DNA of 57,527 bases, counting the filler, from Streblomastix strix (lineage: Eukaryota): assembly GCA_008636045.1 (NCBI GenBank). It is 3 parts of 3 records of this genome, joined end to end, with 100 filler letters (N's around TTAATTAATTAA, not from the genome) between each part and the next. Parts side by side here need not be neighbours in the genome. Positions count along the whole stretch, not along the records: positions 1 to 19,115 come from SNRW01000544.1; 2 more parts are not named here. One strand, given 5' to 3'. The notes beneath the pieces are model-generated. The model ran no database searches. It was not told where the DNA came from and worked only from the letters and a program-made list of their open reading frames with translations. Made by a program: the position numbers and the translations under genes. Positions within the stretch are counted from its first letter, which is position 1, and the number at the start of each line of letters is the position of its first letter. Of the stretch, positions 1 through 39,069 are shown piece after piece.

Positions 1-244
1 CCTATTTCTGATGACTCTCTACATAAACTTCATATATTTTAACTCCAATTATTATAAACTATTTGAAACCCGATTTATATTCACACAAAACCATCAAATC
101 TATTTTAGTCTCTGCTTATTTTATTTTTTTTATTTTTTTTTAACGATTTTCTTTGCTCTTTTCCATAAATATCATATTTTTTTTAATCAAATCGATTATT
201 TAAAACTGATTTTTCATTATTAATATAATTTTTTTTAGTTCTTC

Positions 245-3200: not shown

Positions 3201-4757
3201 GAAATACCAATTCTATGCACTGGGATGCAATCATAAAGATTCAGAAAAGGTAAAATAGAAGTTAATCACCGTGGAATATTCTTCTCAGCTGAAGTTAATA
3301 CATATTAATAAAATGAAAATGACGAAGTTGAAGATTAAGACAATTATTTATAAAATGATTCAAAATCTGAAATAATATTTTAAAGTTCATTTTTGCTTTT
3401 GAGTGGAATAGAACTGTTGAATGATGGAGAACTATTTGATGGATAAGATTTTGTTATATCTAATTAATAGAATGGAGAATTAAATGATAATGGTGAAGAA
3501 TAAAATACTTAAGAAGGAAGTATTCATATTTCATTAGATTTAATATTTGAAGACGAAGAGAGAATAGAAAAAGAAATAATTGCAATTGAAACAAAAAAGA
3601 CTTTGTATAAATATAGAAAGAAGAGAAAAGAATAAGTTTCTGATTAAGAAATTGAGCTAAAAGGAAGTCCAAACATCACTTAGAAACATTCAAGAAGTAA
3701 GAAATATAATAAAATAAAGAAAAGAAGAAAGAAATCTTAATCATAATCAAGAGATCATTAATTAGATGTCAATAAAAGATCCAATTCACAACCAAATTCA
3801 CCTCCTCAGAAGACATTGAAATAATCTAAGAATTCATCTGCCAAATTAAAGACTGACTAATTCTCAAAATCTGAAATAAAACATAAATCTTCCCAATAAA
3901 AGAATAAATCAACATCAATTTCTCCTTCAAAGCTAAAAATTAATAAATAAAAAACATTACCATCAAAAGATGAATTAATTTAAAATGAAAAAGAGATTGG
4001 TAAATAGATAAATTCATAGAAAATTGACATAATTAATAAACATAAATCATAATAACACAAAACTAAACAATTTTCCACAAATAAAGAAAAATTTATTTCA
4101 GATATTAAAACTAAATAAGAAAAAGGAATTTAAGAATATATACCTAATAGTAAGAACAATATTGTTGCATTAAACTCATAGCAAACTAATAAACTCAATA
4201 ATTCAATAGATAATTAACAATAAAATGATATTATTGCAGATAAACATGAAATTGAACACGATCTTGAATCAAAATAAAGCCGTCATACAATGAATACAAC
4301 TACTTCATCAATATTTACTTCAGAAAGTTCATCTCATAAATCTCATAAATAGGCAATATTTGATTAAATGTTTATTTCACCAGTATAAGAAAAAGATATA
4401 TAATAGGAATTAAGTGATTAAAATGATAAAGGTAAATAAGTTAATTTTGATTAATAAGAGAAAAGAAATGAAAATAATAGTTAAAATTCAGATTAATAAG
4501 ACAGTAGTGATAATATTGAAGATCTTGTAGGAACACTGCGCTTAGAATTTCTTACAGGTATAATTATTCGCTTCCGGTGCATATAACCCCTGCACGTTTA
4601 TGGGATCATTAAGCTATGGTTTGAGAGAACTCAAAGTAAAAGAATGGCATTTCTTGAACATGTACAGAAGTTCTTCACAGAATAAGTGAATAATAAAGCT
4701 CAATAACATGGCCATGTTCTCCTGTTTCATGATTTACGATAGAAAAACTCACTTTGA
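245..4757 (+). CDS. Leucine-rich-repeat protein (N-terminal SDS22/AIR9-like LRRs, long Q/E/N-rich tail); multi-exon
   Basis: With TAR=Gln: ATG 245, GT-AG intron 410-464, LRR units NLEQIFLDNNQI / NLHILTLENNNI / NLEQLNLKGNPI and LRR-cap YRVMALIAFG..LKRIDN; more AT-rich introns near 1.38-1.45, 1.51-1.67 and 2.05-2.14 kb; ends ...QKNSL-TGA 4755-4757. Confidence 0.75.
2631..2819 (+). repeat. Coding tandem repeat, 7 x 27 bp (EHEQIQDNQ / EHEQEQDNQ alternating)
   Basis: Alternating units GAGCATGAATAGATATAAGATAATTAA and GAGCACGAATAAGAGTAAGATAATTAA, a 54-bp higher-order period. Confidence 0.9.
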
Positions 4758-4958
4758 TTTTTATATTTCTTTTTAAAAAATAGTCTTTTATAATATCACA
4801 TATTTAATTTATTGTTATAATAAAAATGGAAAAACATAAACAAATAATGGATCTAAATTAGTTTTATTATCATTAGTGCTATATATGAATAGAAATTAAT
4901 AATTAATACAATTTTATTAAATAATAAATAATTCATATCATGAAATTTAGTTGGCGAC

Positions 4959-7900
4959 TCATTCTTTATTTTCTTATTCATTCTCATTTCTGTGTTTATC
5001 CATCAACCTATATGGATTGATTGAGTTTGAAGGTTGGGGTTTCTATGAATTAATTGTGTAGTTGACATTTTCTGTGTGAAATGATTATCCAGTGGAGTGT
5101 TGTTAATCATAGATATTGTTATTTTTGACAATATTTTTCGGATTTTCTTTGTTATCATAGATATTGGATTATTTGGAGCGTCTAGAAACTTATAAGACTT
5201 TTTCTTGTGGCATTGGTGATGCTAGTCGAGGACCAATTTACAACTAAAGAAGTTGATTATATAAATTTTATTCTTTCATATCTTTTACTCCAATATCAAT
5301 GTTTCTTCCTTAATTTTCAGTTATTTAAGGTAATTAAATGTTTTATATTTATTTAATACCTGAATGATTGGAATTATTTTGATTCTCCTATTATGAAATT
5401 GCTTATTAATTATTATTAATATTTGAATTAATATATATTCTTCTAGGAGGAGAAGAACGAGGAGGTGATTTAGGTAGAATATATTATTCATTTATATTAT
5501 TATTATTATTGTTGTTGTTGTTATTATTATCATTATTATAATTATTATTTTATTATTATATAGATAAAGATTAAGGACTATAATGATGCATTTCTTTATG
5601 AATATGCCTTTTATAATGTCTATTTGGTGATTGACTTAATTCTAATGATGATTAATCAGGAGGAGATGAAGAATAATTACTTATTGGTTGTTATATAATC
5701 TTTTCATCCATCTGATATAAATTCGGATATATATCTATTTGATTATTATTCTATTTTAATGTAGGATATTGTTTAAATTTATCAAGCTAATCTTTGTTTT
5801 TATTTTAAATGAATTAAATATTATAATCTCTTTAATCTTTATTTTATTATTATATATTTTTATTATTCTTAATTTCATTTTGTTTATCAAACCATTCATG
5901 ATCATCAATAAATTCATTGTTATTATTATGATTAATATTATGATTTGTAGACTCATTATTTCTTTCTGATTTGTATCTCTATCTAAAATCTATATTATAA
6001 TCCCTATCTTTATCCTTATTAATAATATGATCTGTTTTATATTATTCTCTTTATTTGGTAACTAACCTTTATTATTTATAATCTTATAATTTTTATAAGT
6101 AATCATCATCAATATTTTCAAATTCTTGAGAAGGAATTTATTAAAAGTTATGAGAATAAAAGAGTTAATCATTATTATGATGATGATGGGTTCTTATCAA
6201 TCTTTTATCTTTATCATTAATATATTCTTATATTGTAGGAGATATAGGATATTAATGATTATTATTGTTGATATATTGATAATTAGATTTCATTGGATGT
6301 GAAGATTGCTATTAATTAATTAAAGGAGTATGAAGTTATGAATGAGAAAGACAATTTGAAGTTTAATCTAACATTTCTGGAGAATGGACAGATTATTATT
6401 AAGTTATAATTGCTTATTTATAATCTGAATTCTAATCTCTCTAAAGAATTGTAGGAGATTATACTAATGAAGATTTAATCTTCTAATATTTTTCATAATC
6501 AAGAGAGTTTCTTCCAAATAATTATGATCTATAGTTATATTTATTATTATTGATACTGCTACTTATACGATGATTATTATAAGGTTAACTATTATATTTT
6601 AGTGAGTAAATATGTGAAGATGATTTTGGATTATTGAGTAGTAAATTTCTTCTATATTCTCTAAAATCATCTTCTTCTTTAAATTAATGTTAGTTATTCT
6701 ATTAAAATTTTTATTAGAATTATAAATCATTGACTTATTTGGATTTAAATTGAAATTGTTCAAATTCAGGAATAGAATTTTTATCATCAATTTAATAATT
6801 AGATTGTTATGAACTTTAAATATGATTATCATCAACATGATTATTAGATGGAGATATATTGCGAGGATATTTTCTTTATTATATTTCTTCTATAATATAT
6901 TTTTATTCTCGAGAATTATTTGGTTCAGAATGAAATAACTAACTTGTTTGTGGATATTTGATTCGATTTTATTAATAATTATCATATATATATCTTCTTT
7001 CTTTAATATCATTTAATTTATCTTCATTTTCGTTGTAACAATCATATTACTAATCTGCTTAATTTGGTGGAGATATTAAATTATGCAGTTAATGATTATA
7101 TTGATGTTAATTTGAATGAGACTATGAAGGAGAAATACTTCTATAATGATGATGATTATAACCTAAATTTAAATCTTTTCTTTATTAAAATATATCTTAA
7201 GGAGATGCTTCTTAGTATCTATTCTATACTAGTCTATTTTGAATATCTGGAGATGAACTATGATGACGTGATAATCTTAATTTATAATCATTTTCATTTG
7301 TATTTGATATATTATTATATTAAGGATTAAACATCTTTATATCACTCTAATCTGAATTGAAATTTGTATCAATTGGAGATTGAAGAGGATAATAATGAAT
7401 TGTTTTTCTTCTCTTATCATCGCTGTTTCTTTATTAAATTAATTCTTTATTTTTTTAATCTACTGGAGTCATTAATTCAATAATTTCTTAGTCAATCTAA
7501 AAGAATTTCATTTTTAACAATTATTCTGAAGTTGCACGATTCTATGGATTATAAACAATAATAGATCTTAGAACTTCACTAAATGAATCCCATATTTATT
7601 CTGGTAGTGGAGATAGAGTTTCATATAACCTTGAATATCCTTCAACATCATCACTATTCAATTATGCTTTTCCAATAATAATCCAAGAAGTAGGAATAAC
7701 ATCTGGTCTACTTAATTTCAAGCAATTAAATCTGGTGTCTTATAAGTATCTCATGTCCTTTCTTTATGGATTACCAAATCTTGTGAATATTGCAGAAAGA
7801 AGTTCATCATAACTTCCTCCAGTTAGAGGAGGATATCCAAGAATAGATTCAAAAAGAATATTCCCTATAGCCCATATATCATTTTCTTCAGTAAATACAT

Positions 7901-8203
7901 CGTCCATCTTTGCCTCAAGCCTCAACAGAACTTCGGGTGCATAATATGAGCTTCTATTGCAATCTCGAAGTGCCAATTCTACATCTCCATTACAAGAGAG
8001 CACATTTTTGGGGTGAATTGCACTATGCACGAATCCGGAACGGTGTTTTTCTTTAAGTAATTACAATACACTATGAATAACGTGTCTTACAAATATCCAA
8101 TCCAACGTTCCTGCAATATGCATAGAAAAATTGATGAATTTTGTGTAAATTTTTAGAAAAATATACCATTTGAACTCCTAAGAAGACTGAAGAGTGATTT
8201 CAT
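4959..8203 (-). CDS. Degenerate CMGC-like protein kinase (probable pseudokinase) with long Q/S/P-rich C-terminal tail; 5' end uncertain
   Basis: MKSLFSLLRSSN/intron/GTLDWIFVRHVIHSVLQLLKEKHRSGFVHSAIHPKNVL...YYAPEVLL...DIWAIGNILFESILGYPPLTG...YNPQNRATSEQLL; frame ends ...ENEQENKE-TGA at 4959-4961. Confidence 0.7.
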
Positions 8204-9062
8204 ACTAAAAAAGTTACTCTATGAATATTATAAAAAAATATAAATATTCAGATTTCATAAATAAAACTTAAAAAAACAATTTGATAAAATAATAAAAATA
8301 TCCAGATTTCATTGATATAATTTAAAAAATGTTATAATAAGATAGTTTTAAATCAATATTTAGCTATAAAATGATTTAAATATTTGATATTTCAAGAAAA
8401 TTTGGTAAGAATTTCGATAAGTTTTTTTCTTATTCAGTTTGTTTAATATGCAATAGATATGTTGTTTGCATATTCCAAATATATAATATGTATATCTATT
8501 ATAACACTTTTGGCGACAAATAATATCAATTTCCATAAGCTGAATTTAGGGATGGGCAACTAGCGCATAAATTGAGTCATTGGCGCGTTTGGAAAAGTAC
8601 GCGCGATCTTAGATTTATTACAATATTTTGAATAAACCCGCCATTAATAACAATTTTCAACTCAGTACCAAGTGCACCACAGGTGTCCTTGTTGAGATAA
8701 TTTTTTTATTATAAAATGTACGTTTCAAGTCTATAAATCAATATATACTGATTTAGTTTATGTGTTGTACATCATAATTAATTAGAACCATTTCATCTGG
8801 AGTCTGGATGGTTGTTGAGAAACGGTGCCGTGAAGTTTGAAATTTTAGATCATTTTGCCTGTAAATTTTTTTATTTAATTTGCTTTCATTTTATTGATTT
8901 TATGATTTATTGATAGATTATTGCACATTTTTAAAGAATTTAGTAACTCAACTCATCTAATGATCTTTTTGTGCTTCTTTAAAAGTGGGTTAGTGTATTA
9001 AAAATATTGAGCTTTACATGCCTTTTCTTGCATCAGGTTGGAGTTTAAATCTAATGAGCTTA

Positions 9063-9328
9063 GTAGTTATGTGAAAAAGGAGAGTGCGCCACATTGAAAA
9101 ATAAAATAAAATAATGAAAATAAGATAATAATAATAAATAATAACAATAAATAATGTAAAATAAATAATGATAATAAACAATGTAAAAGAAAATAAACAC
9201 TTGGATAGGATTAATGATGTGCATTTATAGTGAAACATGATAGAATGCGGATATTGAAGTAGATTAATGAAGTACGTTATTGAATGATATTCTTGAATGA
9301 ATGGCACTCTCCTTTTTCACATAACTAC
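9063..9328. mobile_element. MITE-like element with perfect 25-bp terminal inverted repeats
   Basis: GTAGTTATGTGAAAAAGGAGAGTGC (9063-9087) is the exact reverse complement of 9304-9328; AT-rich non-coding interior. Confidence 0.7.
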
Positions 9329-9467
9329 ATGCAAAGGTTGATGGAGTTGGCTGATGGATTTCATTGATAGAAACCTAAAATATGTTGATGAAATCGTTAG
9401 TGAAAACATGAATATTTGACTGTTCCGAGTATTCTGAGTGTTCCGAGTAAAATGGGTTCTATGAAAA

Positions 9468-10668
9468 ATGCCAGTCGATCCGCCAAATAGTCGAAATATG
9501 AAAAAAACATTCAATAATGCTTGTAGATTCACAAGTACAATAGATGGAATGTCAACAATTACTGGATCATCATTTGTCAAGTCAGGAGCAGATAATACTG
9601 TAATTTTACTTGGAGCTGGTGGCACTAAACCAATTGCAGAGTTTGGAGGATGCATTGATGATTCGAATTACGTGAAAAAAATAGGCTAATCTCTATAAGT
9701 TATTAGAGGATATATTAGAAAAAGTATGTAAGATGTGGATGATGAATCATCCGAAGAAGATGAAAATTATATAACAAAAGGTGAAGTTGAAACCTAATAT
9801 GTTTCACTAGGTGATAGTTAACAAATCATCGTAATTAAATCATTTTATGATAAAGTTACCGCTAATGGATTCGTTAAAAAAGATGGTACAAATCAACAAG
9901 TATTATTAACGAATGGAACAACGAAACTACTTTCAGAATTTACTGGTATTCCAACTGATTTATCAAATTATTATATTAAAAGTGAAACTTATTCACAAAC
10001 TGAATCAAATAATAAATTTGTAAGATTGGAAGGTTCAATTCAATAAACAATAACAGGAAGATTAAAATATATTAGTCCATTTGGTTAGACATATGATGAG
10101 ACATAAGATCCAGTTGAAAATACATATTTGGCTTAGTCAGAAGTTGATGCAAAACTAACAAGTTATGTTAATACTGTTAATAATTAATCAATAAATGGAA
10201 CTAAGACATTCAATGCAAATGTTAATGCTACTTGATTTGAGAAAACAGGTAAAGATGATACATTAGTCTTATTGGCTGGAGGAGGAGATATGTTATTATC
10301 AGCATTTGGAGGATTAGAATTAGTAAATTTTAATTATACGAGTAATGTAGTTAGTCCAACTTCAATAATGTCACTAAAATATTATAGATGTGGATCACTA
10401 ATCAACTTTTACGGTTATATATATGGGTAATGGAGCAGGAGCATCTGATGCATCAGTTGCTGTTTGCACACTTGAAAGTGCTGGATTTCCAAAGTATTTA
10501 TTTTATGCATATGATATAGTTTTTGCTGGCTCTGCACCACATGTCGCAAATTTCAGATTTGGAACTGATGGAAAGGTTACGAAAACTATTAAAGCACTAA
10601 GTGAAACAGCAGGTTTGGCTGGTGACGCATCAGCATACATCAATGTTACATATCCTGCAGCAAATTGA
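9468..10668 (+). pseudogene. Viral fibre/tail-fibre-like repeat protein (in-frame TGA and frameshift; probably 5'-truncated)
   Basis: Three repeats: TITGSSFVKSGADNTVILLGAGG, KVTANGFVKKDGTNQQVLLTNG, NVNAT*FEKTGKDDTLVLLAGGG; TGA at 10233-10235; frameshift in the TA run at ~10416-10423 before the beta-rich head (...YINVTYPAAN*). Confidence 0.7.
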
Positions 10669-10741
10669 AAACAATAATGGAGCTATTGATATTAGCATTA
10701 CCTATCAAACTAGTCTATTACTATTATTTTTGAAGTATGAA

Positions 10742-12361
10742 ATGAGTTCAGTATACTTAGATGAAGCATTATTAGACGCAGCAGGATTATCAGATTTTCC
10801 AGAATTATACGCATACATTCGTGAGAGATATTAAGATCCAATACCACCAGCATAACGAATACTAATCGGAGAGTAAACTTTATAAAAATAAGTGAAAGAT
10901 AATGATGATATTCTATTTAATACAAACGAAGAGTTCGTACCACCAGTTCCAAACGCTACTTAAATATTAGATTTAAGTTCATAGCAAGAACGATCTAGTT
11001 TCTTATCATCAAGTGGATCAGATCCATAATTAATTGTGTATAATGATCCTGCTACATTAACCGCGTCATATGAAACTACTGGATTATTTCCCAATGGATA
11101 TTTATTCAAAAGTTATCCTGAAAAAGCGAGACCAAAAGCTGGTGATAAAATGATTGGATTAGTTGGAATAGATACAACGAATAAAAATAGTATATTTTGT
11201 TATATCGATTAGAATGGACCATTTATCATCAGTACATCATAGATTCTATCAAATACTGCACTCGTAATAAACGTAACCTATTATAAAATATATGAATATT
11301 CGAAGATAATAAATTATGATGCGAATAATGATGGACGAGTTGATATAATGGATACATAGCATATTAATAGCAAAGGAACATTCGAATCACAATCACATGT
11401 GTATGAAACTGTGAAAAAATAAACTTGTTTGATCGCAACTGGATTGCTTGGTGATGTTAAAGTAAATTATTTGAATAGTGATATAAAATTATAGGATGAA
11501 TTGGCAATCTATAAAGCGGATAGAGCAGCATTCTTCATTAAAGAAGATTCATTTATTACATTTAGTTTTGGGGCAAAATTAGGATAAATAATATAATAAT
11601 AAGCTAATTCAGAAAATCTATAAACAATTCATAGATTATTTTCGACAATAACTTAAAAATTACTTCCTCCAAATACGAAATACATGCCAGTTCGTACTGA
11701 ATAGTAAGAATATACTGCGATGTGTTTGTTCAAAGATATCTATGATAAATCATTAGCGGTAGAAGTAGCTGTAAGTGAAGTATTGAATAAGTATGATTGT
11801 GAATTTAAAGGAAAATATTTACTCGATAACTATAAGAATCCAACATCAAATGAAGAGTCAAATGAAGAACCAAACGTATCTCCATCAGATCCAAAAGAAC
11901 CTGATTCTCATATTGATGAAGTAATAACAAAACGTGATAAATTATTAGCATTATCTTCACAACCAATATATACAATTACTAACGTATTCAATTAAATTTA
12001 ACTTATTGCACCATTTGATCAAGGTGGGCATGCCTATAATACATTCTATATTGTTGATGATGAGACTTGCAAAGTATGTGTATTCAATCTATATTTTGAA
12101 ACAAAAGGATAAGCAATAAGTACATAAGAAATTGGTAGGATTCCAGATTCTATATTACCAGCTGATGGTAAATGTATAGGATTTCCTGCATCTGTATATA
12201 GAAATGCTGGTGGATATATTAATTGGTTGGGTACGAGCTATTTCGGATTCAATTAATAATATAAAATGCTATATTGCTTTTTGCAAAATGTTCAAGAAGT
12301 TATTCCTGAATCATCAACTGATATATATAGGTATTGTGCAAGTGGAATATATTACTTATGA
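10742..12361 (+). CDS. Viral hypothetical protein, 539 aa, beta-rich, with a DxNxDGxVD loop; possible virion/fibre protein
   Basis: Uninterrupted intronless ORF with TAR=Gln, MSSVYLDEALL...YCASGIYYL-TGA (1620 nt). Confidence 0.7.
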
Positions 12362-12448
12362 AGTAACAGGCAATGAAATTGCGTACTATCTATGAGACAT
12401 TGATTCGATAAATTGATGCAAATACGTTTATTTTTGCGTATTAAAATC

Positions 12449-12778
12449 ATGGCACCAGGAATATTCAGCAAGCTTAAAAAATTAGTCTCATTTGTAGGTA
12501 AAGGAGTCAGTTGGATGAATGATAAAGTAGTCAAGCCAATAATGCCCATAACTAACGCACTTCTCTAATCTTTGGAACCAGCAGGAAGCATGGTGGCGAA
12601 AGGGATTAGTGCAGGATCATCTGCAGTTGATGCTTTATTTGGACCGAATAAATAATAATCAAAATAACAATTCAGATAAGAGTTTAAGACATTCCGATAG
12701 GATGATTTCTTAAGGAAAAAGGTTCCGATTGATATAATAAGCAATCGTATAAAGCATCTTGGAGATAAATTGTAGTGA
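12449..12778 (+). CDS. Small viral protein (109 aa) with an N-terminal amphipathic basic helix; putative membrane-active core protein
   Basis: MAPGIFSKLKKLVSFVGKGVSWMNDKVVKPIMP...KHLGDKLQ-TGA; lies directly upstream of the capsid-like gene. Confidence 0.7.
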
Positions 12779-12811
12779 ATCATTAATTGAGTTAATTAAC
12801 ATATAATCAGA

Positions 12812-12820
12812 TTATTTTTG
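12812..12820 (+). promoter_or_regulatory. TTATTTTTG motif before viral start codons (representative copy, upstream of the MCP)
   Basis: Exact copies at 10724, 12428, 12812, 14567 and 16464, each 9-12 nt before an ATG. Confidence 0.5.
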
Positions 12821-12831
12821 CACAATTAAAC

Positions 12832-14553
12832 ATGAATCGCTAGCTTATGAAGACACATGTGCCTAAAATACAAACCAATTTGGAAACAATCGAGAATTTG
12901 TTAAAGACTTTCACAATTCAACCATTTTAGAACGATGGATAACACCATTTCTCAATCAAAGAGATCAAACCAGAATCATAAATGCCATCATTATTTGATA
13001 AGGAAGTTATTATCAGTTTGACCGATCCAGATCATGACGTAACATAGATTTAAAATTCATTAATTACACTTGATTTTACGTTGAATCTATTGTTCGATAA
13101 TAAATTTGATTAATTTAGCGAATCTTATAGAGCTGGAACATTTATATTTGTTGGATTAAAATCATCTGCATAACTAATTCGCGAATATGTTCTGTATCAT
13201 CGAGGAAGAATAATTGATGGATCCCTCTAGAACGATTCAACTACCGAATAATTTATCTATAATACTATTAAACCCAAATCAGAGAAAAATAATAATAGAT
13301 TCGTTCATTCACTCTATGAAAATGTACGTAAAGATGATATATCGCATTGTGGAAAATATCTTAATATCAAGGATATTTCAGATGCATTTGCTCCACAAAC
13401 TGCTGCTCCATATGTTATGCCAGTAAATTTCTCTGTCTCAATTCCACTAGATGATTTACTCATTTTCTCAGCAATCTCTGAATATCCTAACGCATTATTT
13501 GGAGATCTCAAAATTAAATTCAAAATCAATCAAAACGCTTTCGTATTCTGCCAAATTGATCCAGTAATTTCGATGGCTAGATATTACACAATTAATAACG
13601 ATGAATTATTGAGCTCATGTTAAGATAAGCTTAAGGATATTGATCTATTCTTCCGCAACTGGAGTCTCACATTCTAATATACTAACATGTTCATATAAAT
13701 TGGATGCACTGCTGATTTGGTTACAGGAGTACGTGCTGAAGAGCTAACTCCATCATGATTAAAGAATCTAGTTTGTGATATTAGACCAGTAACAGAATCT
13801 GTAAGAAATTATGTCATTACTGCAGCTGTTGCAAATATGTGTGGATATAAAGCTTCACAAAAATGTCTTAATCATGTGCGATAATTCTATTCAACTCGTC
13901 CATTTGTTGTATCTGCATAACGTATTGAAACATAGGCATTTCCAAGTGGTGCTACTCTCACTGGATTGCGTACTTCATAAAATATACCGCTATCTCATGT
14001 TACTGATATGTGCTTACTATTTCCTAAAGATGCTAGACAAACAACTTGCTTCGAAAATCCATGGTATTAAAATATGTAATTATCCACTTTAGGTAGAAAT
14101 TTCCCAGATTTCCCCATGAATACACTTAATGAATAATTTTTCACAATGTAGATGACTGAAAATAATCTCGATAATATATTCGAAGCTATTGATGAATATG
14201 AAGATTCATTAACAACTCCAAGAGGAAATTTGATTAGAAGATACAATTCTGTAACTGATTATACGTCATTCTTTATTATATTATAATGTGAACGTAATAG
14301 CAATCGTGTATTAACATTTGATGGATTAGATACTTAAAATTAAAATACTTCAATTGAATTACATGGATATCTAATTTACTAAGGTGCAGTTGATACTTAT
14401 TATTATGTTGATACTAATGGAAAACTTCCACCTCCTCCAATTCTGCGCACAGTTCATGATTCATTCCGGCTATTTAGCCCTGCAGATGGAGTATCATGCG
14501 TCTATGATACAAATCATTCATTCGATGAGGTTATTGGATAAGTAACTGCTTGA
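12832..14553 (+). pseudogene. Putative major capsid protein (double jelly-roll, PLV type) with one in-frame TGA
   Basis: 573-codon intronless frame MNRQLMKTH...FIFVGLKSSAQLIREY...IPLDDLLIFSAISEYPNALFGDLKIKFKIN...TCFENP...LQCERNS...FDGLDT...QVTA-TGA, one TGA at 13756-13758. Size, beta-rich content and linkage to a packaging ATPase support MCP; the fold is inferred. Confidence 0.7.
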
Positions 14554-14585
14554 TATTGATGGAATATTATTTTTGCTTATAGAAA

Positions 14586-14976
14586 ATGGCATATAATCGT
14601 GCAGTAATTAATGATATGACTTCAGCTCAGAATGTAAAGCGCTTCGTAATAATGTAGGATGATTGTACGTATGTTGATGGAATGTTTAAAGTGTAGTTGC
14701 CTTATGATTTTGTAAACTCATATAATTGGCGAAAAAAAAATCGTATAGTGTAAGATTCTTAATACTCCTGATATAGTTTCTATTCATTCAACATTAGTAT
14801 AAGAAGAATAATATTATGATAGTTTTGTAGATTTCTGTAATGAAACAAAAACGATTAATTAATTTTAATATATGAATCATTAGTCAAATATATTGATTTG
14901 GTTCAAAAATAATATGAATTAAAATGTATCATAAACGGATATAAAATTTGCTCTTGAATTAATGCTTCAATATTGA
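14586..14976 (+). pseudogene. Putative minor capsid (penton-like) protein, frameshifted
   Basis: MAYNRAVIND...FKVQLPYDFVNS, +1 shift in the A9 run at 14732-14740, then SIHSTLVQ...FVDFCN...ILIWFKN...FALELMLQY-TGA; immediately after the MCP. Confidence 0.5.
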
Positions 14977-15003
14977 TTTTTAATTATTTTTATGAATTAT
15001 TGA

Positions 15004-15156
15004 GTGTGGAGGAATTCCGCCATACCATCTGATATAGAGATTAGTGGTCAAATTATCGGTTCATTTTGACAGGTAAAATTTTACCCAACAACTTTTAACA
15101 TGGATATTAGTGGTCAAATTATCAGTTCGAACAGTCGGCCGAAATTCGGCTGACCC
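15004..15156. repeat. Intergenic cluster of two 23-bp direct repeats interleaved with three palindromes
   Basis: ATTAGTGGTCAAATTATCRGTTC at 15040-15062 and 15106-15128; palindromes at 15004-15025 (imperfect), 15072-15085 (GGTAAAATTTTACC) and 15134-15154 (GTCGGCCGAAATTCGGCTGAC). Confidence 0.8.
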
Positions 15157-15216
15157 TTCATAAATTATTTTTATATATTAATCAAAATGTAATTTGGATA
15201 TTTTTATTATAAGCAA

Positions 15217-15477
15217 ATGGAATCGAAATCAATTATCGAATAATGCTAAAAAATATTATAAATCTAAGATTAATGCAAATAAATCATGGTACTTGAGTAA
15301 CGGACTCATGAATTAAAATAAATACTTAAGGAAAAACTAATCTATACATTAGTAGGTTTAGCTTATAGCTTTGTTGATCCTATGGCTAATGAAAGTGATA
15401 AAGATACAAGATTAGAATTAATGGAGCAATATGATGCAGAAGTTGATGACATTATCAATGATATTAAGAGATTGTGA
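15217..15477 (+). CDS. Viral hypothetical protein (86 aa, helical)
   Basis: MESKSIIEQ...GLAYSFVDPM...DIINDIKRL-TGA; alternative in-frame ATG at 15187. Confidence 0.6.
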
Positions 15478-15559
15478 ACTATTTTGATAAATTATTTTTA
15501 TGAATTGATTAATAATCGTTCGTTTTAATTTACTAATCCAACTTTTTTGCCGATCAGAA

Positions 15560-16450
15560 ATGACATCGGAAACACCATCTACTCGTCAAATAGGCTCGAA
15601 TAACGAAAATTTTACAATTGGTTCTTACAATGGTTTCGAAATAATGATACGTGATAATGATGGCTTTGTTAATGCTTCTAAGTTAGTCCAATAGATTAAT
15701 GAAAGAGAACATACATCTAAGGAATTACGTAATATTACACGTTCACCAGTCTTTGTAGAATACAAATAATATCTAGAGAAAATTAGCCCGTTCAATTTGA
15801 ACGGACCCCTTTGTTACTTACTTCCGACTGTTTTTATGAATAATGTTAGAGGAACATACGTTCATAGGTAATTATTGAATATTATCTGTATAATATCATC
15901 AGTTAAATAATTACATCATGTCACAACTATAATGGACAAAATTAACGAAAGAGTTCATGAAGAACACAATGCTGATCCCAATACTCCTATAGGTACTCAT
16001 ATTGATAATGTTAACATTGAATTCATGATTTATCAATAAGATAAAATTGATTAATTAAGATTAGATAATAAAGGTTATAATAATAATATACATTAACTAG
16101 TACCAAGAGCTGTTCCAAATGGTAAAGAAAGAACATATATATTGATAGTTGAAAAGGTTAGCGAAGATGAATAGCTTGAAGATTAGCAGGAAATTCATAT
16201 TACAAAATGAATCAGAAGAATTAATAGAAAAGACTTACGTCCCGCAAAAATAGAACGATATCGTCGTGAATCATTACTTTTTGTTGATAATTTACCAATA
16301 GATATGATGATTAATGAAAAAATTAAAGAAACTCTATAATCAAGACAAGATGTAAAAATATGATCAACTCATTATACATTCCCAGAAGACTAATTTGATT
16401 TCATAATTGATATAATATAAGCTGTAATTAACACAGAAAGAGCACATTGA
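15560..16450 (+). pseudogene. KilA-N domain DNA-binding protein (two in-frame TGAs in the C-terminal part)
   Basis: KilA-N hallmarks YNGFEIMIRDNDGFVNASKL...VRGTYVHRQLL; then coiled coil and PRAVP; TGAs at 16208-16210 and 16361-16363; final TGA 16448-16450. Confidence 0.85.
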
Positions 16451-16482
16451 TGGTTCGGTTATTTTATTTTTGTTTAATTGAA

Positions 16483-16887
16483 ATGTCTCGTATACTATTC
16501 GATAGTAAGCTAGTTAAGAACAATAAATCTTAAGACAAAATATAACCATTACATGAACTAAAAATAATCAATAAAACTGATACGTAGCCGTTAACGTTTG
16601 ATTCGACTGATGAATTCCATTAATATTATGCAGCTAATAAAGAATCTATTGATAAGATGCTAGCTACAAAATTAAATAAATAGTATAAAATAGATGGATA
16701 TATCTTCACAAAATAGAATGAATAAATAGCGTTGAAATAAGCAAAACATTAGTAATCTGAACAAATTGAACTAGCTTGTCTATAAGAATAAATCAAAAAA
16801 ATTAATGATAAATTAACGTATTTAATGAACTTCTTTGAATAAAAATAATAATCAACTTAATATGAAGATGATAAATACGTTCATTGA
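16483..16887 (+). CDS. Viral hypothetical protein (134 aa)
   Basis: MSRILFDSK...FDSTDEFHQYYAANKESIDKMLATKLNKQYKIDGYIFTK...DDKYVH-TGA; intact and intronless. Confidence 0.65.
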
Positions 16888-16923
16888 ATCCTTCAATATT
16901 AGATCAATATCCTCAGTCCTAAA

Positions 16924-17224
16924 AACTGTGCAGGTGTGCAGGATTAGGACCCCTAAAATTGATAAAATGATAGTCGGTCGGTCGCTCGCTCGGATTTGCT
17001 TTTGAGATAAGCGACTGAAAAAAATATATATTAACTAATTCATCAATCGTATTATTTTTATCAATATTCCCTATCTCTACTTATCCTGCACAAAATGACC
17101 AAAAATAGGGGAAAATTAAGGAAGTTTTATTAATGCTGCTACTTAAATGTATTCTTTAGCGAGCGACCGACCGACTTTCATTTTGGCAAAATTAGGGGGT
17201 CCTATCCTGTACACCTGCACAGTT
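16924..17224. mobile_element. MITE-like element with ~67-bp imperfect terminal inverted repeats inside element A
   Basis: Left arm AACTGTGCAGGTGTGCAGGATTAGGACCCC...AGTCGGTCGGTCGCTCGCT (16924-16990) pairs with 17158-17224; GC-rich arms between convergent viral genes; no clear target-site duplication. Confidence 0.75.
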
Positions 17225-17296
17225 CCCCAAGCTATTGAGATTCACTCTAATTATGAAGGACTAAAAATAGAACTAATTGAAAATAAAATTTCAATA

Positions 17297-18070
17297 TCAA
17301 ATAACTCGTACCATTGTTCCATCATTATTATACTGTACCAGTAATGCTTCTTGTTTGCCTAATTGCACATATTCATTCCATAATGTTTCTTTAACTAATG
17401 GAATGCTTGATTAATAGAAGAATAAATTGAATTTTTATCTGTTGAATCCACCGAAAAAGTATATTGTATCTACATTAGATTTAATGCTAGCATCCAAACC
17501 AATTATATCTTATAAGCATAGGAAGTAAGTGATTCTGGGCTATCTATTTTTGAATAGATTCTTGTATATTGGATTGATTTTATTCTTGAAGATACTCATT
17601 GCATCATCGAACAGTACTATTGTATGTGAAAATTTGATTGCAAAGTCCTTTATTCCTATGTGAGATAATATATCTTTTTTAGATTCATCATTCATTTATT
17701 TTTCTAATTTCCTTTCAATAACCTCATCATAAGCTTGTTTTCATTCGATCAATTCATCTAATGCTTCATTCACTTCTGCATATGGAACTATCTTAGTTGG
17801 GATAGTGATTAAATCTTTCATTTTTTTATAAGTTATATCATTATTGCTATCAGTAACATATTTGAATAGTGTATAACATTTATTAGGCAATTAGCTCAAT
17901 TTGATTAGCTCTTTGAATACATTATATGACTTACCGCTTCCACGTTATCCTATGTGCAGATTGATAGAATTATATGAGAAATTTATTTCTTTATGAATCA
18001 TTGATTATACTTCATGTTTATTAGTTTTCAATTTACTAAGCAATTGATCCACATATGCTGTCAAGGACAT
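17297..18070 (-). pseudogene. A32/FtsK-HerA family genome-packaging ATPase (element A), one in-frame TGA
   Basis: Walker A GQRGSGKS, Walker B TIVLFDDA, NRQPRITYFLCLQ (Arg finger and Gln sensor), IKSNVDTIYFF; TGA at 17741-17743; 257 codons. Confidence 0.9.
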
Positions 18071-18121
18071 TTGTTTGTTATTAATTATTTCATTCGGTTA
18101 TGAACGTTTTCTTATTAACAA

Positions 18122-19115
18122 ATGAGCTCAGAAGAGTTAAATTCTGAAATTGGAAATATCTGGACAAGTGCACGAGGTAATAATGAATTCATTAATGAGT
18201 TACGTAATGCGTAGGATAATATACAAAATTAATATGAACATAAAAGTCGTAAAAGTAAAGCAGAAGAATTAGAAATATTGAATCAAACAGTTATCGCATT
18301 TCGAAGAATTTAATAAAACATTAGAACTCAACATAATAGATTACTAATAATCCTTTATAAACTTATATTGCTAGTTAACCTTAAACAATTACTTAAAATT
18401 TATTAGTATAATTATAATCAACATATTAACGAACATAATAACCAAGAGAATAAGCGATAGAATAAATACAAATCCTAACTTTTATCCAAAACCAAATAAT
18501 GGCTTAAGTATAACAATCGAGTTTCTCAAAATGGTTAGAGAAAAATTAAGCTCCATTATCCGAAAAAAAAACGTAATAAGAAAAACGCTAGATTATAGAA
18601 GCTTGCATAAGGTAGAATTATCCGTGCAACAGGACTTAAAGCAAAATAACTACAAGCATTAATCGGAGTATTAAATGTTAAACAAAACCTGCATAAAGAT
18701 ATAAAACATAATTAAGAATTCAGAAAAATACTATCAGGAGAACAATATATTGCTTCTCATAAAGGAATGCAAGGATATACTATGTAGATGGTCGATCCAG
18801 ATGGTGAAGGTCCGCTACCTGAATTCGCTACCGTTTATACGAATAATGGAAAATTATATTCTATGGGCGGATATATACCAAAAGACGAAAGTAAATATAA
18901 TAAATATCGAGAATAATTTATCGGTTAAGTAGCAAAAGATCATCGTAAAAATACTAAATTCTTCGATTTTATGTAAGGTAAGGAAGTTCGATATGGTGCG
19001 CAACATAAAGATGGCACTTATAACATGAAATAATTCTAATAATTAGTTCCAAGAAATCATTTCTTAGCTACTTATGTCCCAACCATTGCAAACGAATATA
19101 AAGACACGAATGAAA
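18122..19115 (+). CDS. Viral hypothetical protein, 3'-truncated by the assembly gap
   Basis: Frame free of TGA from MSSEELNSE through ...MVDPDGEGPLPEFATVYTNNGKLYSMGGYIPK... to the N run; divergent from the ATPase. Confidence 0.6.
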
Positions 19116-19215
19116 NNNNNNNNNNNNNNNNNNNNNNNNNNNNNNNNNNNNNNNNNNNNTTAATTAATTAANNNNNNNNNNNNNNNNNNNNNNNNNNNNN
19201 NNNNNNNNNNNNNNN
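19116..19215. other. Artificial gap linker (44 N + TTAATTAATTAA + 44 N)
   Basis: Exactly 100 nt with a six-frame standard-code stop cassette; identical to 38327-38426. Confidence 0.97.
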
Positions 19216-19644
19216 AATATATGAATGTATTAATCGTTTGATTACTGACAATTGCTATTACGAAAGAGAAGTCATTTAAGTTATATTAAATGAGTATAAT
19301 ATCATTAATCAAGTCAATATTTAATTATAGATTCTATAGTGCTAATTTCTTATTATCTGTTATTAGTTTATCGATACCTGAACAAGTATAAGAATTAATC
19401 AATGAATTTAAAAAACTATGGAGTTATCTTGATGTGATAGTGATTCCAATTAGTATTATAATATATATTGTTAAATTCTTCTATCATTGTAAAATGCTAA
19501 ATAAAAAGGATTTACACTGGAGTTAATATACGATTGATGAGTTGTATTAGTTAGTATAATTAACGATTGACGATAAGGTTCTTAAATTAGCATAGCATTA
19601 TCGATACCTAATTACTTTAAAATTGATTAATTAAAACAATTAAA

Positions 19645-20676
19645 ATGAGTTTATCAGAAATAAAGCAAAAATAGTTTGATACTTATAATAGGTTAGATGA
19701 ATATAAAACGAAACCATTAACCCCTAAATCTATCTTTCTTATTAACGCAAACTATTATATTGTAGGAACTGTTGGAAGTGGTAAAACAACATTAATGAGT
19801 AAACTAATTGTACAATATAAACATATAATTAATCCTTATATACTATACTTCTCAAATTTAGGACCGGATGAAAGTATGTCGTTAAATATGAATGATAAAA
19901 ATATATCAATTAGTAATATAACTTACGATGAAGCGATGATCTTCTTACCATAGTTCGATAAGATTAAATACAAGGTTAAATAGATATATACTTATTGGAA
20001 ATTAAAGCAAATGAAAGTTAAGTATAACAGTGATTACATTAATTAACTTAAATAGAATATGTTCGATGTAAATGAATTAAAAAATGAAGAAACGTATTAA
20101 TAGTTTATAACTTGAATGAAAGAGTAATTTAAAATCTATTGTATTGAAACAATTAACGAATATAGCTAACTTACAAAAATAATGTAATTTATTATACCTT
20201 CGTTAGTTTAAAATGTTAGTTATGAGATTAGATTGAAAATAACTGATACATAAGAAATAGATGAAGATGGAGTTACTATAATTAAAACACTAAAATTTCC
20301 TATACTTTAAAATGCAAAATTATTATCTACGTTAATGATCTTTGATGATATTGGTTCTAATACAGATATATAAAGATATACTTCATAGTTATCTTGTACA
20401 ATTACTCATCTCGTAAGTGATAGTAAACATTCTAAAAATACTTTATTCTTTGTTGCATAACGTATGTAATACTTGTTTAAAACTGCTCGAATATTATGTC
20501 ATGTGATTGTCCTTGGGGTTAATTTAGGAGATAGTGATTTGAAATAGATTTATAATGAGAATAATATAAACATACCAACAGAATAAGAGTTAATTATATT
20601 ATGTAACTCATTGAATAAGTATGAATTTATTGTTATTAATAAGTGGTTATAAAGATTTGAAATTATTAAATAATGA
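19645..20676 (+). pseudogene. A32/FtsK-HerA family packaging ATPase (element B), one in-frame TGA
   Basis: NYYIVGTVGSGKTTLM (Walker A), TLMIFDDIG (Walker B), DSKHSKNTLFFVAQR, KTARILCHVIVLG; TGA at 20113-20115; 343 codons. Confidence 0.85.
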
Positions 20677-20697
20677 TAAATTTTATTTTTAATTTAA

Positions 20698-20841
20698 ATG
20701 ATATGTTGGGAAATTATTTGTTGTATTTCATTAATGATTATAACTTACAATCATCTATTAGTTTGTATATTAACAATATAGCAAATAAAAATAGATAACG
20801 AAGGGATTAGTGATGAAGTAAGAAATTCAATTTATTCGTGA
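20698..20841 (+). CDS. Possible small membrane protein (47 aa)
   Basis: MICWEIICCISLMIITYNHLLVCILTIQQIK...NSIYS-TGA; preceded by the TTATTTTT motif seen before other viral ATGs; overlaps the extended antisense fibre frame. Confidence 0.35.
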
Positions 20842-21903
20842 GACTTAAAAGTCGCCAAGCTATGCTTGGATTAACTTGATTAATTATTAATAGCATATGA
20901 ATCACAAACGTATACACAAAAATCATCCCGTAAACTTAACTTACACATTATATTAATTCTTACATGTCCATCAGGATCAAATTAACAATCAATAGGAATT
21001 GCACCATTCTAACATATAGGGTACCCATATACTTTTTATGCAAACATAACAGCATTTAAAGGTATATTATAAGGTGTTCCAGTGAATTTTGGTTTTATAT
21101 CATCTTTAACGACTGAGAATAAAGTATATTTAGATTGACATGCAGTATTAGGGTCAGAATGAGTTACTTATACCGATAAATATGCTCTTCCATTATTGGT
21201 TGTAAATGAACCCCATACTAATTGTTCATACATTCCATATGCAAGTGCTTATTTGATAGCATTTTCAATAGGTATAGGTGCTATAATTTAATTGTTGAAT
21301 TTAAGTGATGTACAATCGAAATCAATAATTAGACTCTTATAATCATATGCTTAATCTTTTTTTTTGTATCCTAAATTATGATGAAGTTGATCCAACTTTC
21401 TATACACCATCTCTATCTGTAGGGTCAGTGATACATCCAGTGAGTACAAAACTATCCCAATTTGCTTTATTTTTCATTAACCTAATACCTTAATCTAATA
21501 TAATATCACTCGGTTCAATAATAAATTATCCTATTGTATGAGGATAGTATTTGGGTAAAAAATCACCTACATCAGTTGTATCACCATTAGCTAGTAGAAT
21601 CTAATTATCAGTGCCATCTGTTTTTATACTCTTGTTTGCTACTATAGGTTATATAAATGATTTGCTTCCTGCTACTGTTTGATCGGTATCTAATAACATT
21701 AAATTAGATAAATAAATATCCTTAGTTTTCATGTATTAACTGAAATAAGTAAACAGTTTAATAATCTTTGTATCAATGAAAGAGGTTAATTATCTTTATA
21801 GTTTCTCTAATTACTTCACTTCCTCTTATTTTTATTATATCTCTTACAATTATTTTCGTATATAAGTTATCTCCTCTTCAGATGGTTCGATTAATGATTC
21901 CAT
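20751..21903 (-). pseudogene. Viral fibre-like protein of element B (frameshifted; 3' end uncertain)
   Basis: MESLIEPSEEE coiled coil, then DTDQTVAGSKSFIQPIVANKSIKTDGTDNQILLANG (same repeat class as 9468-10668); +1 shift in the A9 run at 21357-21365; beta-rich C-terminus. Confidence 0.65.
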
Positions 21904-21922
21904 TTAGATTAAAATAAACTGA

Positions 21923-22540
21923 TCAGAATTCATTTAGATCAATATCTGATGCAGGCTTATCAGATAGTCTAACGAAATCTTTGTTTATTCGATATAGGTT
22001 CTCAACAGAGTTAAACAACACATTATCTAATACACTAATGCTTACATTTTTAATTAGTACATCCATTACACTTACTAAGTTTTTTTTCTTATATTTATTT
22101 GCCATACATGAATGTGATTACGTTAATAGTTCCTCTAATACTATTTCAATATCATCTTCGTTTTCTTATGTGATTAGTGCCCAAAATTTAATGAAGTTAT
22201 CGCTATTCAATATGAAGTCATCTCCTCGTTTTCTTGATGTAGTTACTCTCCAGATACAATCAATAACAAATTTAAGTACTTCTAGATGTGGATGAGCTAA
22301 GAAAGTTTTTTTAACTACATCTTCAGGTTCAACTTATGCAGTCTCTCATTCTGCTTCTTTGTATTTATTTTTATTATAATGCCTCTTAGGTCTAACTTCG
22401 TCTTTAGTAATATCCTCTTTAATTTCTTATTATGGAATTGATAAATTTCTCAAGGCTTAATCAATCGATTATAATCTAAGTTTATCTTCTTCCGATAACT
22501 CTTTCTTCATGTCTTCGATTTGTTTCTTTGATTTACTCAT
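21923..22540 (-). pseudogene. Viral hypothetical protein (205 codons, one in-frame TGA)
   Basis: MSKSKKQIEDM...HPHLEVLKFVIDCIW...SDIDLNEF-TGA; internal TGA at 22346-22348. Confidence 0.55.
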
Positions 22541-22604
22541 TCGGAGTTAATTCCTCTCGATGCTTGAAATAATTTAAATCAATTAAAAATTTTATTATTG
22601 ATAA

Positions 22605-23159
22605 ATGGATAAATCGTAAACCTTAAGAAAATTAAAAGAAAATGGAACTGCATTTGAAAGCTTCATTGGAGGATATCTAATGTAAATAGGTAAGTAGATT
22701 AAGATATATGAAGATGGATAGAGGACTCCAAAAGTCTTAATACAAGCTTAGTAAAATAAGTTGTTATAGATGCCAATAATAAAAGAATAAAAATAAGACG
22801 AACTATTTATGTATCAGGATGATGAAGATGAAAGTGAAGAAGAATAAGAAATATAAGTACCAGTAGTTAAGAAGAAGATTAAAGCAATATAAAAATAACC
22901 TACTATTAAATATTCTACTCCATAGATAGATCTTGAAGACCTAATTAAATTGCGAACTGAAAATTAATTCATCAAGAAATAGCATATCGAAGCATAAAAA
23001 CAAATTAATAAATATAAGCATAAACATAAATCAATGAAACAAGTTAAAAAACCTTCAATTAAAGAATAACCTATTGAATAATAATAAATTTAAGAATAAC
23101 CAATTTAGTAAGAATTAGTTAGCGAAAGATACATTAGTGAGTTCGAGTTATATTAATGA
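22605..23159 (+). CDS. Viral hypothetical protein (184 aa, charged/coiled-coil)
   Basis: MDKSQTLRKLKENG...IDLEDLIKLRTEN...SEFELYQ-TGA; intronless and divergent from the preceding gene. Confidence 0.6.
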
Positions 23160-23782
23160 TTATTTTTGTCAGGGGTTAATCAGAACTACTAAGTATTGAA
23201 GAAATCGGCAATATTTTAATAAGTATGACAAACTCGGAAAAATAAACCGTAATATTTAAGCGAGCCTCTTTTTGATTAACCCGAAAAAATTTATCCATAC
23301 AGATTTCCTACAGAAATAATCAGAATGACTATTTGTAATGATTTATGATGAGAATTAATTAAAGTTAAGAACGATGAATTGTATAGTAAAACACTTAAAA
23401 TAGCGTAGAAAATTGATGTGTTAAAAGTAGACATGTAGGGCGAGCTTAATCCTGAAGGGTTATTTTGAATGATTTGCTATACTTTTTAAAAATGGTGCCA
23501 ACTTCTTCAATAATTAGTAGTGCTATCAATAAAACTGTAGAATTTTTTGATTTTATTTCATAATTTTATTTAATGATAATTTATTTGCAATTAAAACAGA
23601 AAAAAAGAGAAACTAATAAAATTAAATATATATTTATTAAAAAAATTTATAAACATTAATGTACTAGGAGTTATGAAACACTCTGTAGATAGATCAAAAT
23701 CAATAAATTCATATTTTATAATAAACAATTTATTTATGCAGATATAATAAATAATTTTATGGCATAAAAAATATTATTGAGC

Positions 23783-35572: not shown

Positions 35573-35881
35573 TAGCGATCAAAAAATTGATTTTAGAATA
35601 AAAAATAAAAAATGCAGAATTTGGATTATTTTTGCATAAATTTGAGTTAATTTATATCTTTAAAAAATTTATTTTAATTAATTCGATATTATAAAGTCAA
35701 ATATTAATAGATTTAACCAGTTACACGGTGCTAAAAAAGAAAGCTATTATTAGATGAATTTAGTTACCAAATTAATTAATATAAATTTATTTAAATATAA
35801 ATTAATACTCATTTATGCAAAAATAACATAAATTTTTCATTTTTTTATTTTTTTATTCTAAAATCAATTTTTTGACCGCTG
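35573..35881. mobile_element. AT-rich foldback/MITE-like element with long imperfect inverted arms
   Basis: TAGCGATCAAAAAATTGATTTTAGAATAAAAAATAAAAAATG from 35573 matches the reverse complement ending ...AAAATCAATTTTTTGACCGCTG at 35881; pairing extends ~120 bp inward. Confidence 0.65.
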
Positions 35882-38007: not shown

Positions 38008-39069
38008 TCATTTCTTTTCGTCTGGCTTTCCTTGTGTCTTTGTTTGAGTCTTTGTTTATGATTGAATTTGAGAAGGAAGTGAAGATTTGGAATCTTGATT
38101 TGATTTCTCTTTCTCTGAATGTCCTTCTTTTGATCCTTTCTTTTATGCATCACTTATTCCTAAGTTAGATGTTGATACTATAAGTTCTCTGCTATTCGGA
38201 TTCTCTTTTTCTTTTTCTTTTTCTTTCTGTTTTTCTTTTTCTTATTCTTTTTTATTCACACTATCATCTTTCTATATTCTTGCTTTCACTTATTCTTTTT
38301 ATACAATTCCATCTCTTAGTAATATTNNNNNNNNNNNNNNNNNNNNNNNNNNNNNNNNNNNNNNNNNNNNTTAATTAATTAANNNNNNNNNNNNNNNNNN
38401 NNNNNNNNNNNNNNNNNNNNNNNNNNAATAATTTGATTCCGCTCTGTGTCGCCTGAGAATTGTTAATGGAGAAGAATAGTAAAATTAATGTGAATTTTTA
38501 ATATAAAATAAATAAGTAATATAAAATACTGTTGCTGCTGCTGTTTTAAGATGGTTCAACTTCATATTCTTGAGTTTGCTCCAAAATAATATTTTCTTCA
38601 ATTTCTTGTTCAAATGGAGGAATTGCATCAATAATATGCGTAAGAACATCGCGAATCATCTGAACGCAACAATGACAAATAATAATGAGTAATAATAATT
38701 TAGATTCATACTTACACCTCTTTGCGAGAAAACTTCGTTCTTTATCGAAGCATTTTTCTTAATTCTTCTTCGTTGATCACTTCGATCATTTCATCGCAAA
38801 ATCCTTGGCGAATTGCTCTGCAGATCAGCTCAATTATTCGGCGAATGCAACGCGATTGCATAACTTCATTATCAGACCGAAGTATTAATACCATATATCT
38901 CAATTCTGATAACTGAAAGTTGAACGTTAGGAAATAAAAATAAAAATAAACGGAAAATTTTATTTTTGCGCACATCAAGCTTCTGTGTATACGACCATGT
39001 TGTTGGTGTAAAAATTTCTTCTACATCGTATTCATACAGACAATTTGTATTCTTAAAGCCTGTCCTCAT
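38008..39069 (-). CDS. Hypothetical protein, multi-exon, apparently spanning the assembly gap
   Basis: Exons MRTGFKNTNCLYEY.../LSELRYMVLILRSDN.../MIRDVLTHIIDAIPPF...; the other side of the gap gives a same-strand K/E-rich C-terminus ending GKPDEKK-TGA. Confidence 0.55.
38327..38426. other. Artificial gap linker (44 N + TTAATTAATTAA + 44 N)
   Basis: Identical to 19116-19215. Confidence 0.97.

What the first reader, a model, noticed from the sequence alone, without database searches (positions are those of the whole stretch)
9500..19115. Endogenous Polinton-like virus with a near-complete virion module, hidden by the non-standard code
Seen: an intron-free, densely packed island among intron-rich host genes, with a clear A32-type packaging ATPase, KilA-N, a 573-codon beta-rich gene followed by a ~130-codon beta-rich gene, and fibre-like genes. 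Known: ATPase plus double-jelly-roll MCP plus penton is the morphogenesis module of Polintons, PLVs and virophages, and PLVs are integrated in many protist genomes. Inferred: the two beta-rich genes are MCP and minor capsid of a divergent metamonad-infecting lineage that standard-code annotation would miss.
Basis: partly seen in the sequence, partly recalled or inferred. Interest (0 to 1): 0.9.

Follow-up and report, generated by a model that had tools for sequence, protein, structure and literature searches.

The report
Broken copy of known protist provirus
This stretch is a broken, likely dead copy of an already published family of viruses found by the hundreds in the genome assembly of a termite-gut protist; its main shell protein is predicted to have the typical viral fold, and a small neighbouring gene may be the family's vertex protein.

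Summary
12832-14553 encodes a double jelly-roll major capsid protein (AlphaFold pLDDT 91; Foldseek E 2e-13; Z 20). It is 92% identical to a Streblomastix strix protein in the confirmed-MCP set of Bellas et al. 2023, who described this Metamonada (MMN) group and its use of code 6. The island is one copy of a large multicopy family. It has stops or frameshifts in at least four virion-module genes, a 408-bp stretch that relatives lack, and is cut by a contig end at 19115 (the window is three joined contigs). No polymerase, integrase, protease or terminal repeats lie in it. The 129-codon gene is a real conserved gene (19 of 35 variable sites at third codon positions) with a low-confidence jelly-roll-like model, so 'penton' is plausible (about 0.6) but not shown. 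The ATPase has FtsK/HerA motifs by eye, with no A32 profile hit. 'Fibre-like' is unproven. Small additions: a candidate minimal penton, conserved gene order, and a KilA-N gene in an oxymonad element. Interest is low.

The parts
9063..9328 (.). Non-coding foldback: 52-nt inverted arms, 81% complementary, just left of the first gene. In some relatives its right arm joins nearer to the gene block.
   Evidence: I14; joints 9328-9371 (X1) and 9328-9415 (X3)
9468..10668 (+). Gene with a repeated ~16-residue motif and a beta-rich C-terminal domain; fibre/spike-like by inference only. Broken by a TGA (10233-10235) and a frameshift near 10415.
   Evidence: relatives differ in length at 10415 (table 4); no hits
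10742..12361 (+). Intact 539-aa acidic, beta-rich protein, conserved upstream of the MCP; function unknown, possibly a spike or vertex protein
   Evidence: 11 of 11 fused gene models place it before the MCP; Atlas hits of a relative are all under threshold
12449..12778 (+). Intact 109-aa basic, Gly/Lys-rich protein directly before the MCP; possibly an internal capsid protein
   Evidence: 26 of 26 fused models place it before the MCP; net charge +10
12832..14553 (+). Double jelly-roll major capsid protein, MMN group; broken by one in-frame TGA (13756-13758)
14586..14976 (+). 129-codon beta-rich gene, candidate single jelly-roll penton; frameshift at the A9 run 14732-14740, specific to this copy
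15187..15477 (+). 96-aa helical ORF, unknown
   Evidence: no family
15560..16450 (+). KilA-N protein; open to 16210, and the frame continues past further TGAs (16208-16210, 16361-16363), so it is probably broken
   Evidence: (PF04383 E 1.3e-9)
16450..16887 (+). 145-aa ORF with C-terminal coiled-coil look, unknown; conserved in the family
16888..17296 (.). 408-bp non-coding stretch with 67-nt inverted arms between two convergent stops; absent from relatives (MITE-like insertion, inferred)
   Evidence: I3; joint 16887-17296 seen in 4 of 4 runs
17297..18070 (-). 257-codon P-loop ATPase with Walker A (41-48), Walker B (151-156) and an R...Q motif (174-187); likely the packaging ATPase; broken by a TGA (17741-17743)
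   Evidence: motif set from PMC11703096; weak terminase/Zot P-loop hits only
18122..19115 (+). Basic coding region, probably more than one gene with a frameshift at the A9 run 18563-18571; cut by the contig end

Best explanation
This is a broken, likely inactive integrated copy of the published Metamonada (MMN) Maverick/Polinton-like virus family of the oxymonad Streblomastix strix (host inferred from named relatives), holding the virion-gene block: a predicted double jelly-roll capsid protein, a likely packaging ATPase and a possible penton. Shown: MCP fold and identity, code-6 reading, many relatives, conserved gene order around the MCP, breaks in this copy. Inferred from how Polintons and PLVs work: an intact member is transcribed in the host nucleus and translated with the host code; MCP trimers form the faces and a penton the vertices of an icosahedral shell; the ATPase pumps the linear DNA in; an integrase and replicase, which would lie beyond the contig end, insert new copies. 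This copy has since decayed and can make neither capsid protein nor ATPase itself.
For: Fold: pLDDT 91.3, pTM 0.90; Foldseek best hit iridovirus MCP E 2.2e-13; VIA Z 20.1, rmsd 4.1, 347 aligned to PBCV-1 capsid, and 50 of 50 rows are DJR capsid proteins or hexons. Identity: 527 of 573, no gaps, to KAA6381728.1, a protein used in the confirmed-MCP set of PMC10120064. Family: 286 hits, 120 of 120 listed named S. strix; the window MCP nests among S. strix MCPs, SH-like 100. Summed contig depth is 7-11 over the host flank and 1,365-132,049 over 9440-19115 in run X1, with the same step in the other three runs (depth is not copy number, and X1 may be the source sample). Decay: breaks listed in parts; 17 departures from conserved MCP residues against 6 in the nearest intact relative; 33 full-length open MCPs among 177 S. 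strix proteins in hand.
Against: No pPolB, integrase, protease or terminal repeat was found in the stretch, so the life cycle is inferred. No listed contig piece bridges the host-element junction near 8634 (table cut). The one related locus fetched (L001, 1 of 1) has a truncated MCP without the upstream genes. None of the fused gene models links the ATPase to the MCP. 17 departures lies within the family range of 1-40 for most members, and PMC10120064 warns that collapsed assemblies create false stops.
Confidence: 0.88

Rival explanations
1. The copy is intact in the cell and the breaks are assembly artefacts from collapsing many similar copies.
For: Two frameshifts lie in A9 runs; hundreds of similar contigs map here; PMC10120064 reports such artefacts.
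Against: Three genes have substitution-type TGA stops, there is a 408-bp extra stretch, and the MCP differs from its nearest open relative at 46 of 573 residues.
Confidence: 0.06
2. The virus contig is a free or episomal virus, or a chimera joined to host DNA during amplification or assembly.
For: The junction is not bridged in the listed pieces.
Against: No gap between host genes and island; host code is used; many diverged, partly decayed copies (1 of 528 MCP pairs at 99% identity or more, median 72%).
Confidence: 0.04
3. It is a fragment of a giant virus (NCLDV) or of a true virophage rather than a Maverick/PLV.
For: Top fold hits are NCLDV MCPs, with Sputnik and mavirus below; KilA-N is common in NCLDVs.
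Against: Fold identity is only 4-12%; by sequence the MCP belongs with S. strix and T. vaginalis Maverick MCPs; PMC10120064 finds virophage MCPs in a separate cluster; no NCLDV core gene was found in the stretch.
Confidence: 0.02

Closest known systems
Metamonada (MMN) MCP group, cluster MMPC_40, endogenous viruses of Streblomastix strix (Bellas et al. 2023, PMC10120064)
   Same: MCP 92% identical to a listed member; same code 6; many copies per assembly (820 hits reported)
   Different: This copy is broken and cut by a contig end. In the passages and supplement text I saw, the paper names no penton, ATPase or gene order for the S. strix elements; its gene-map pictures and figshare tracks were not visible to me.
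Trichomonas vaginalis Mavericks (Polinton-1_TV type)
   Same: Same MCP cluster (about 32% identity between the listed S. strix MCP and T. vaginalis copies); KilA-N gene present
   Different: Standard code in T. vaginalis; polymerase and integrase of those elements are not seen in this stretch; different metamonad lineage
Polintons / Tlr (Krupovic 2014, PMC4028283)
   Same: DJR MCP, FtsK-like ATPase, small beta-rich gene beside the MCP
   Different: The Tlr penton is 227 codons against 129 here; no protease seen; Metamonada elements remain ungrouped in a 2026 framework

Membership tests
MMN group (Bellas 2023) | MCP homologous to the confirmed S. strix / T. vaginalis MCP cluster | tested here: met
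   92% over 573 aa to KAA6381728.1
MMN group (Bellas 2023) | Double jelly-roll fold of the MCP | tested here: met
MMN group (Bellas 2023) | S. strix members read in table 6 | tested here: met
Maverick/Polinton or PLV | A32/FtsK-HerA packaging ATPase (Walker A, Walker B, Arg finger, Gln sensor) | tested here: inconclusive
   All four motifs are present in order by eye; no Pox_A32 profile hit; not folded
Maverick/Polinton or PLV | Single jelly-roll penton near the MCP | tested here: inconclusive
   Single-sequence model pLDDT 40; best Z 7.3, rmsd 3.4-3.7, 101 aligned, to jelly-roll-type sandwiches; 0 matches at E<=0.001 in BFVD
Maverick/Polinton | Protein-primed PolB and retroviral-type integrase | tested here: inconclusive
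   Not among the ORFs scanned; the element is cut by the contig end and no genome is held
Maverick/Polinton | Terminal inverted repeats and target-site duplication | not testable with these tools
   Only one side is in the contig; no TIR pair in the window
Maverick/Polinton | Adenovirus-like cysteine protease | tested here: inconclusive
   No hit among the island ORFs; element incomplete
Endogenous viral element | Joined to host genes in the chromosome | tested here: inconclusive
   Same contig as host genes, no gap; depth step; junction not bridged by an independent listed piece
Virophages (Maveriviricetes) | Virophage-type MCP, penton and protease | tested here: inconclusive
   Sputnik and mavirus rank below NCLDV MCPs by fold; no Sputnik_MCP Pfam hit; not filed here

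The most novel reading that the evidence does not exclude
The block shows the full, so far undescribed virion kit of the ungrouped metamonad Mavericks: a minimal 129-residue penton right after the MCP, a basic membrane-active internal protein right before it, and phage-fibre-like spikes. Its KilA-N gene extends KilA-bearing polintons from Parabasalia to oxymonads, pointing to giant-virus partners in the termite gut.
Probability: 0.3. Interest if true: 0.5.

Novelty: already known. Interest (0 to 1): 0.22.

Why it matters
As one more decayed copy it matters little. The family matters because Metamonada Mavericks cannot yet be placed among DJR viruses; naming their penton and ATPase would give further markers, and near-intact MCP copies exist (1-2 departures from conserved residues). 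A virus recoded to TAA/TAG=Gln would likely be locked into hosts with that code (inference). A 2026 preprint says KilA appears restricted to Parabasalia polintons; this locus is a counter-example.

Tried and rejected
Homologues of the 129-codon gene: none at 70-226 aa or 227-2000 aa; only a 32-residue piece in one fused model, so it had to be folded without an alignment. A penton family was not listed in the fold searches, which excludes nothing. Related loci: 0 in five IMG/VR scans, 0 in GTDB genomes, 1 in metagenomes. Sequence searches of the PDB gave nothing useful for MCP, ATPase, the 109-aa gene or the first gene; phage tblastn had no match. Adenovirus protein VI-like idea for 12449-12778 (recalled resemblance, no call): best hydrophobic moment 0.53 was reached by 540 of 2000 shuffles and there was no PDB hit, so it is unsupported. 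TGA read as tryptophan: rejected, since the residue opposite the MCP stop in the intact relative is not Trp. No RNA holder listed. An ML tree did not finish; FastTree was used on 91 of the 98 rows, dropping those under 430 aa. The two ATPases of the window show no BLAST similarity. Earlier-findings look-ups returned nothing. One paper was not held. No complex was predicted: an MCP trimer exceeds the size cap.
Full report
Setting. The window is three contigs joined by spacers at 19116-19215 and 38327-38426. The finding is the right half of contig 1, so its right border is an assembly end. No whole genome is held. The DNA reads in code 6. The host is inferred to be the oxymonad Streblomastix strix, because 120 of 120 listed relatives of the big gene carry that name (286 hits in all among 7993 candidates scored).

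The island is real. By my gene% of 9468-19115 is coding, at 29.6% GC against 23.8% for bases 1-8600. Contigs from four public runs laid at 85% likeness give summed depth 7-11 over the host flank (7500-8275), 595-13,907 over 8276-9439 and 1,365-132,049 over 9440-19115 in run X1, with a step in the same place in the other three. This shows many related sequences, not a copy number; two of the runs are one sample and X1 may be the source. Loose ends cluster at 9415-9507, so the gene block starts near there, with less common repeats from about 8634. No listed piece bridges the host junction.

Major capsid protein: shown. The 573-codon gene has one in-frame TGA, read as X. A profile search gave 529 relatives at E<=0.001. 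I aligned it with 19 near-full-length S. strix proteins and 78 distant ones picked from the 120 and 150 listed. The model has pLDDT 91.3 and pTM 0.90. Foldseek's best hits are iridovirus and PBCV-1 MCPs (E 2.2e-13). VIA gives Z 20.1, rmsd 4.1, 347 aligned, and all 50 rows are DJR capsid proteins or hexons. BFVD agrees, as do Atlas features of an intact relative.

It is published. PMC10120064 (passages; rows of supplement Tables S1, S3, S4, S5, a file cut when stored; text of the gene-map file) defines a Metamonada group of MCPs from parabasalids and S. strix, states that S. strix elements use the host code, lists 820 hits for S. strix and confirms one by Foldseek. KAA6381728.1, used there as a confirmed MCP, is 527 of 573 identical to the window protein, without gaps. 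Whether this very copy is in their table I did not check. A 2026 preprint (10.64898/2026.06.19.733378; passages and section 8) says these elements remain ungrouped. PMC11071308 has none of my five terms; 10.64898/2026.10.13.758929 (passages) mentions T. vaginalis once.

Candidate penton: plausible, not shown. The gene at 14586-14976 has a frameshift in an A9 run. Relatives differ in length at that spot, and likeness ends at 14978, just past the stop. Of the 40 variable places listed (34 more not shown; 5 in the break zone dropped), 19 of 35 are third codon positions in the two-frame reading (p=0.009), so it is a conserved gene. No usable homologue was found, so it was folded alone: pLDDT 40, pTM 0.30, about eight to nine strands. 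Its best matches are jelly-roll-type sandwiches, including small-virus capsid domains, at Z up to 7.3, which the tool says may be only a common arrangement; BFVD has 0 matches at E<=0.001. Position beside the MCP fits pentons (PMC4028283, passages), though the Tlr penton there is 227 codons. I put it at about 0.6.

ATPase. Walker A at 41-48, Walker B at 151-156 and an R...Q motif at 174-187 match the FtsK/HerA motif set described in PMC11703096 (passages). Profiles give only weak P-loop hits, none to Pox_A32. With an MCP 2.7 kb away, packaging ATPase is the likely role. It has one in-frame TGA.

Other genes and order. GenBank models that join neighbouring genes to the MCP (taken by me to be annotation joins) give gene order in other copies: among 353 proteins in hand, all gathered through MCP searches, 26 of 26 hits to the 109-aa gene and 11 of 11 to the 539-aa gene lie before the MCP part, 1 hit each to the 129-codon gene and to KilA lies after it, and none involves the ATPase. 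The one fetched locus lacks the upstream genes. 'Fibre-like' rests on a repeated motif and sub-threshold Atlas hits to phage proteins; fibre-like genes are reported in related viruses (10.1101/697771, passages). KilA-N is solid.

State of the copy. Breaks: first gene (stop and frameshift), MCP (stop), 129-codon gene (frameshift), ATPase (stop), probably KilA-N and the last region. A 408-bp foldback between two convergent genes is missing from relatives in 4 of 4 runs. The MCP departs from conserved residues at 17 positions, against 6 for its nearest open relative and 1-2 for the best of 33 full-length S. strix proteins. The copy is most likely dead; near-intact MCP genes exist elsewhere.

How it works (inferred from Polintons and PLVs, not shown here): an intact element is expressed in the host code, builds an icosahedral capsid, packages its DNA with the ATPase and integrates anew through genes that are not in this contig. 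Whether it needs a giant-virus helper is unknown.

Not in print, as far as I searched: a description of the penton, ATPase or gene order of S. strix elements was not found in seven full-text searches (listings only, except the papers named above). Gene-map pictures and figshare tracks of PMC10120064 may hold such annotation.

Verdict: an already known family, one decayed and truncated copy; interest 0.22.

Noticed in passing
window 19216-23200 (start of contig 2): A second, different virus-like island: a 343-codon P-loop ATPase (19645-20676, one TGA) with no BLAST similarity to the first, a broken minus-strand gene sharing the repeated motif (tblastn E 2e-4; PHROG 17788 E 1.5e-4) and several small ORFs. 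Two neighbouring contigs both carrying such islands suggests they are very common in this assembly.
   Followed up: partly
window 9063-9328, 16924-17224, 23182-23524, 35574-35880: Four unrelated 270-410 bp foldback elements with 50-70 nt imperfect arms; three sit at the edge of or inside the viral islands.
   Followed up: partly
window 11315-11345 (in gene 10742-12361): A DxNxDGxVDIxD motif resembling a dockerin/EF-hand calcium loop (resemblance recalled; no Pfam hit), kept in distant relatives P0105 and P0235.
   Followed up: partly
window 15034-15128: Two 29-nt direct repeats (90%) in the gap after the 129-codon gene; relatives vary in gene content here (joints).
   Followed up: no
L001 624-1154 and 1923-3083: A truncated MCP directly beside what looks like a glycoside hydrolase fragment (by eye, recalled), in a record outside the main S. 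strix-labelled set.
   Followed up: no
proteins P0127-P0269: Many full-length, mostly unnamed relatives at 21-41% identity from ENA, JGI and Logan assemblies; one is labelled Alphaproteobacteria bacterium, possibly a protist element binned with a bacterium. The MMN-like group is wider than the named genomes.
   Followed up: partly
GenBank models such as P0004, P0082, P0144, P0330: Gene models join separate viral genes, or a host gene, to the MCP through predicted introns.
   Followed up: partly
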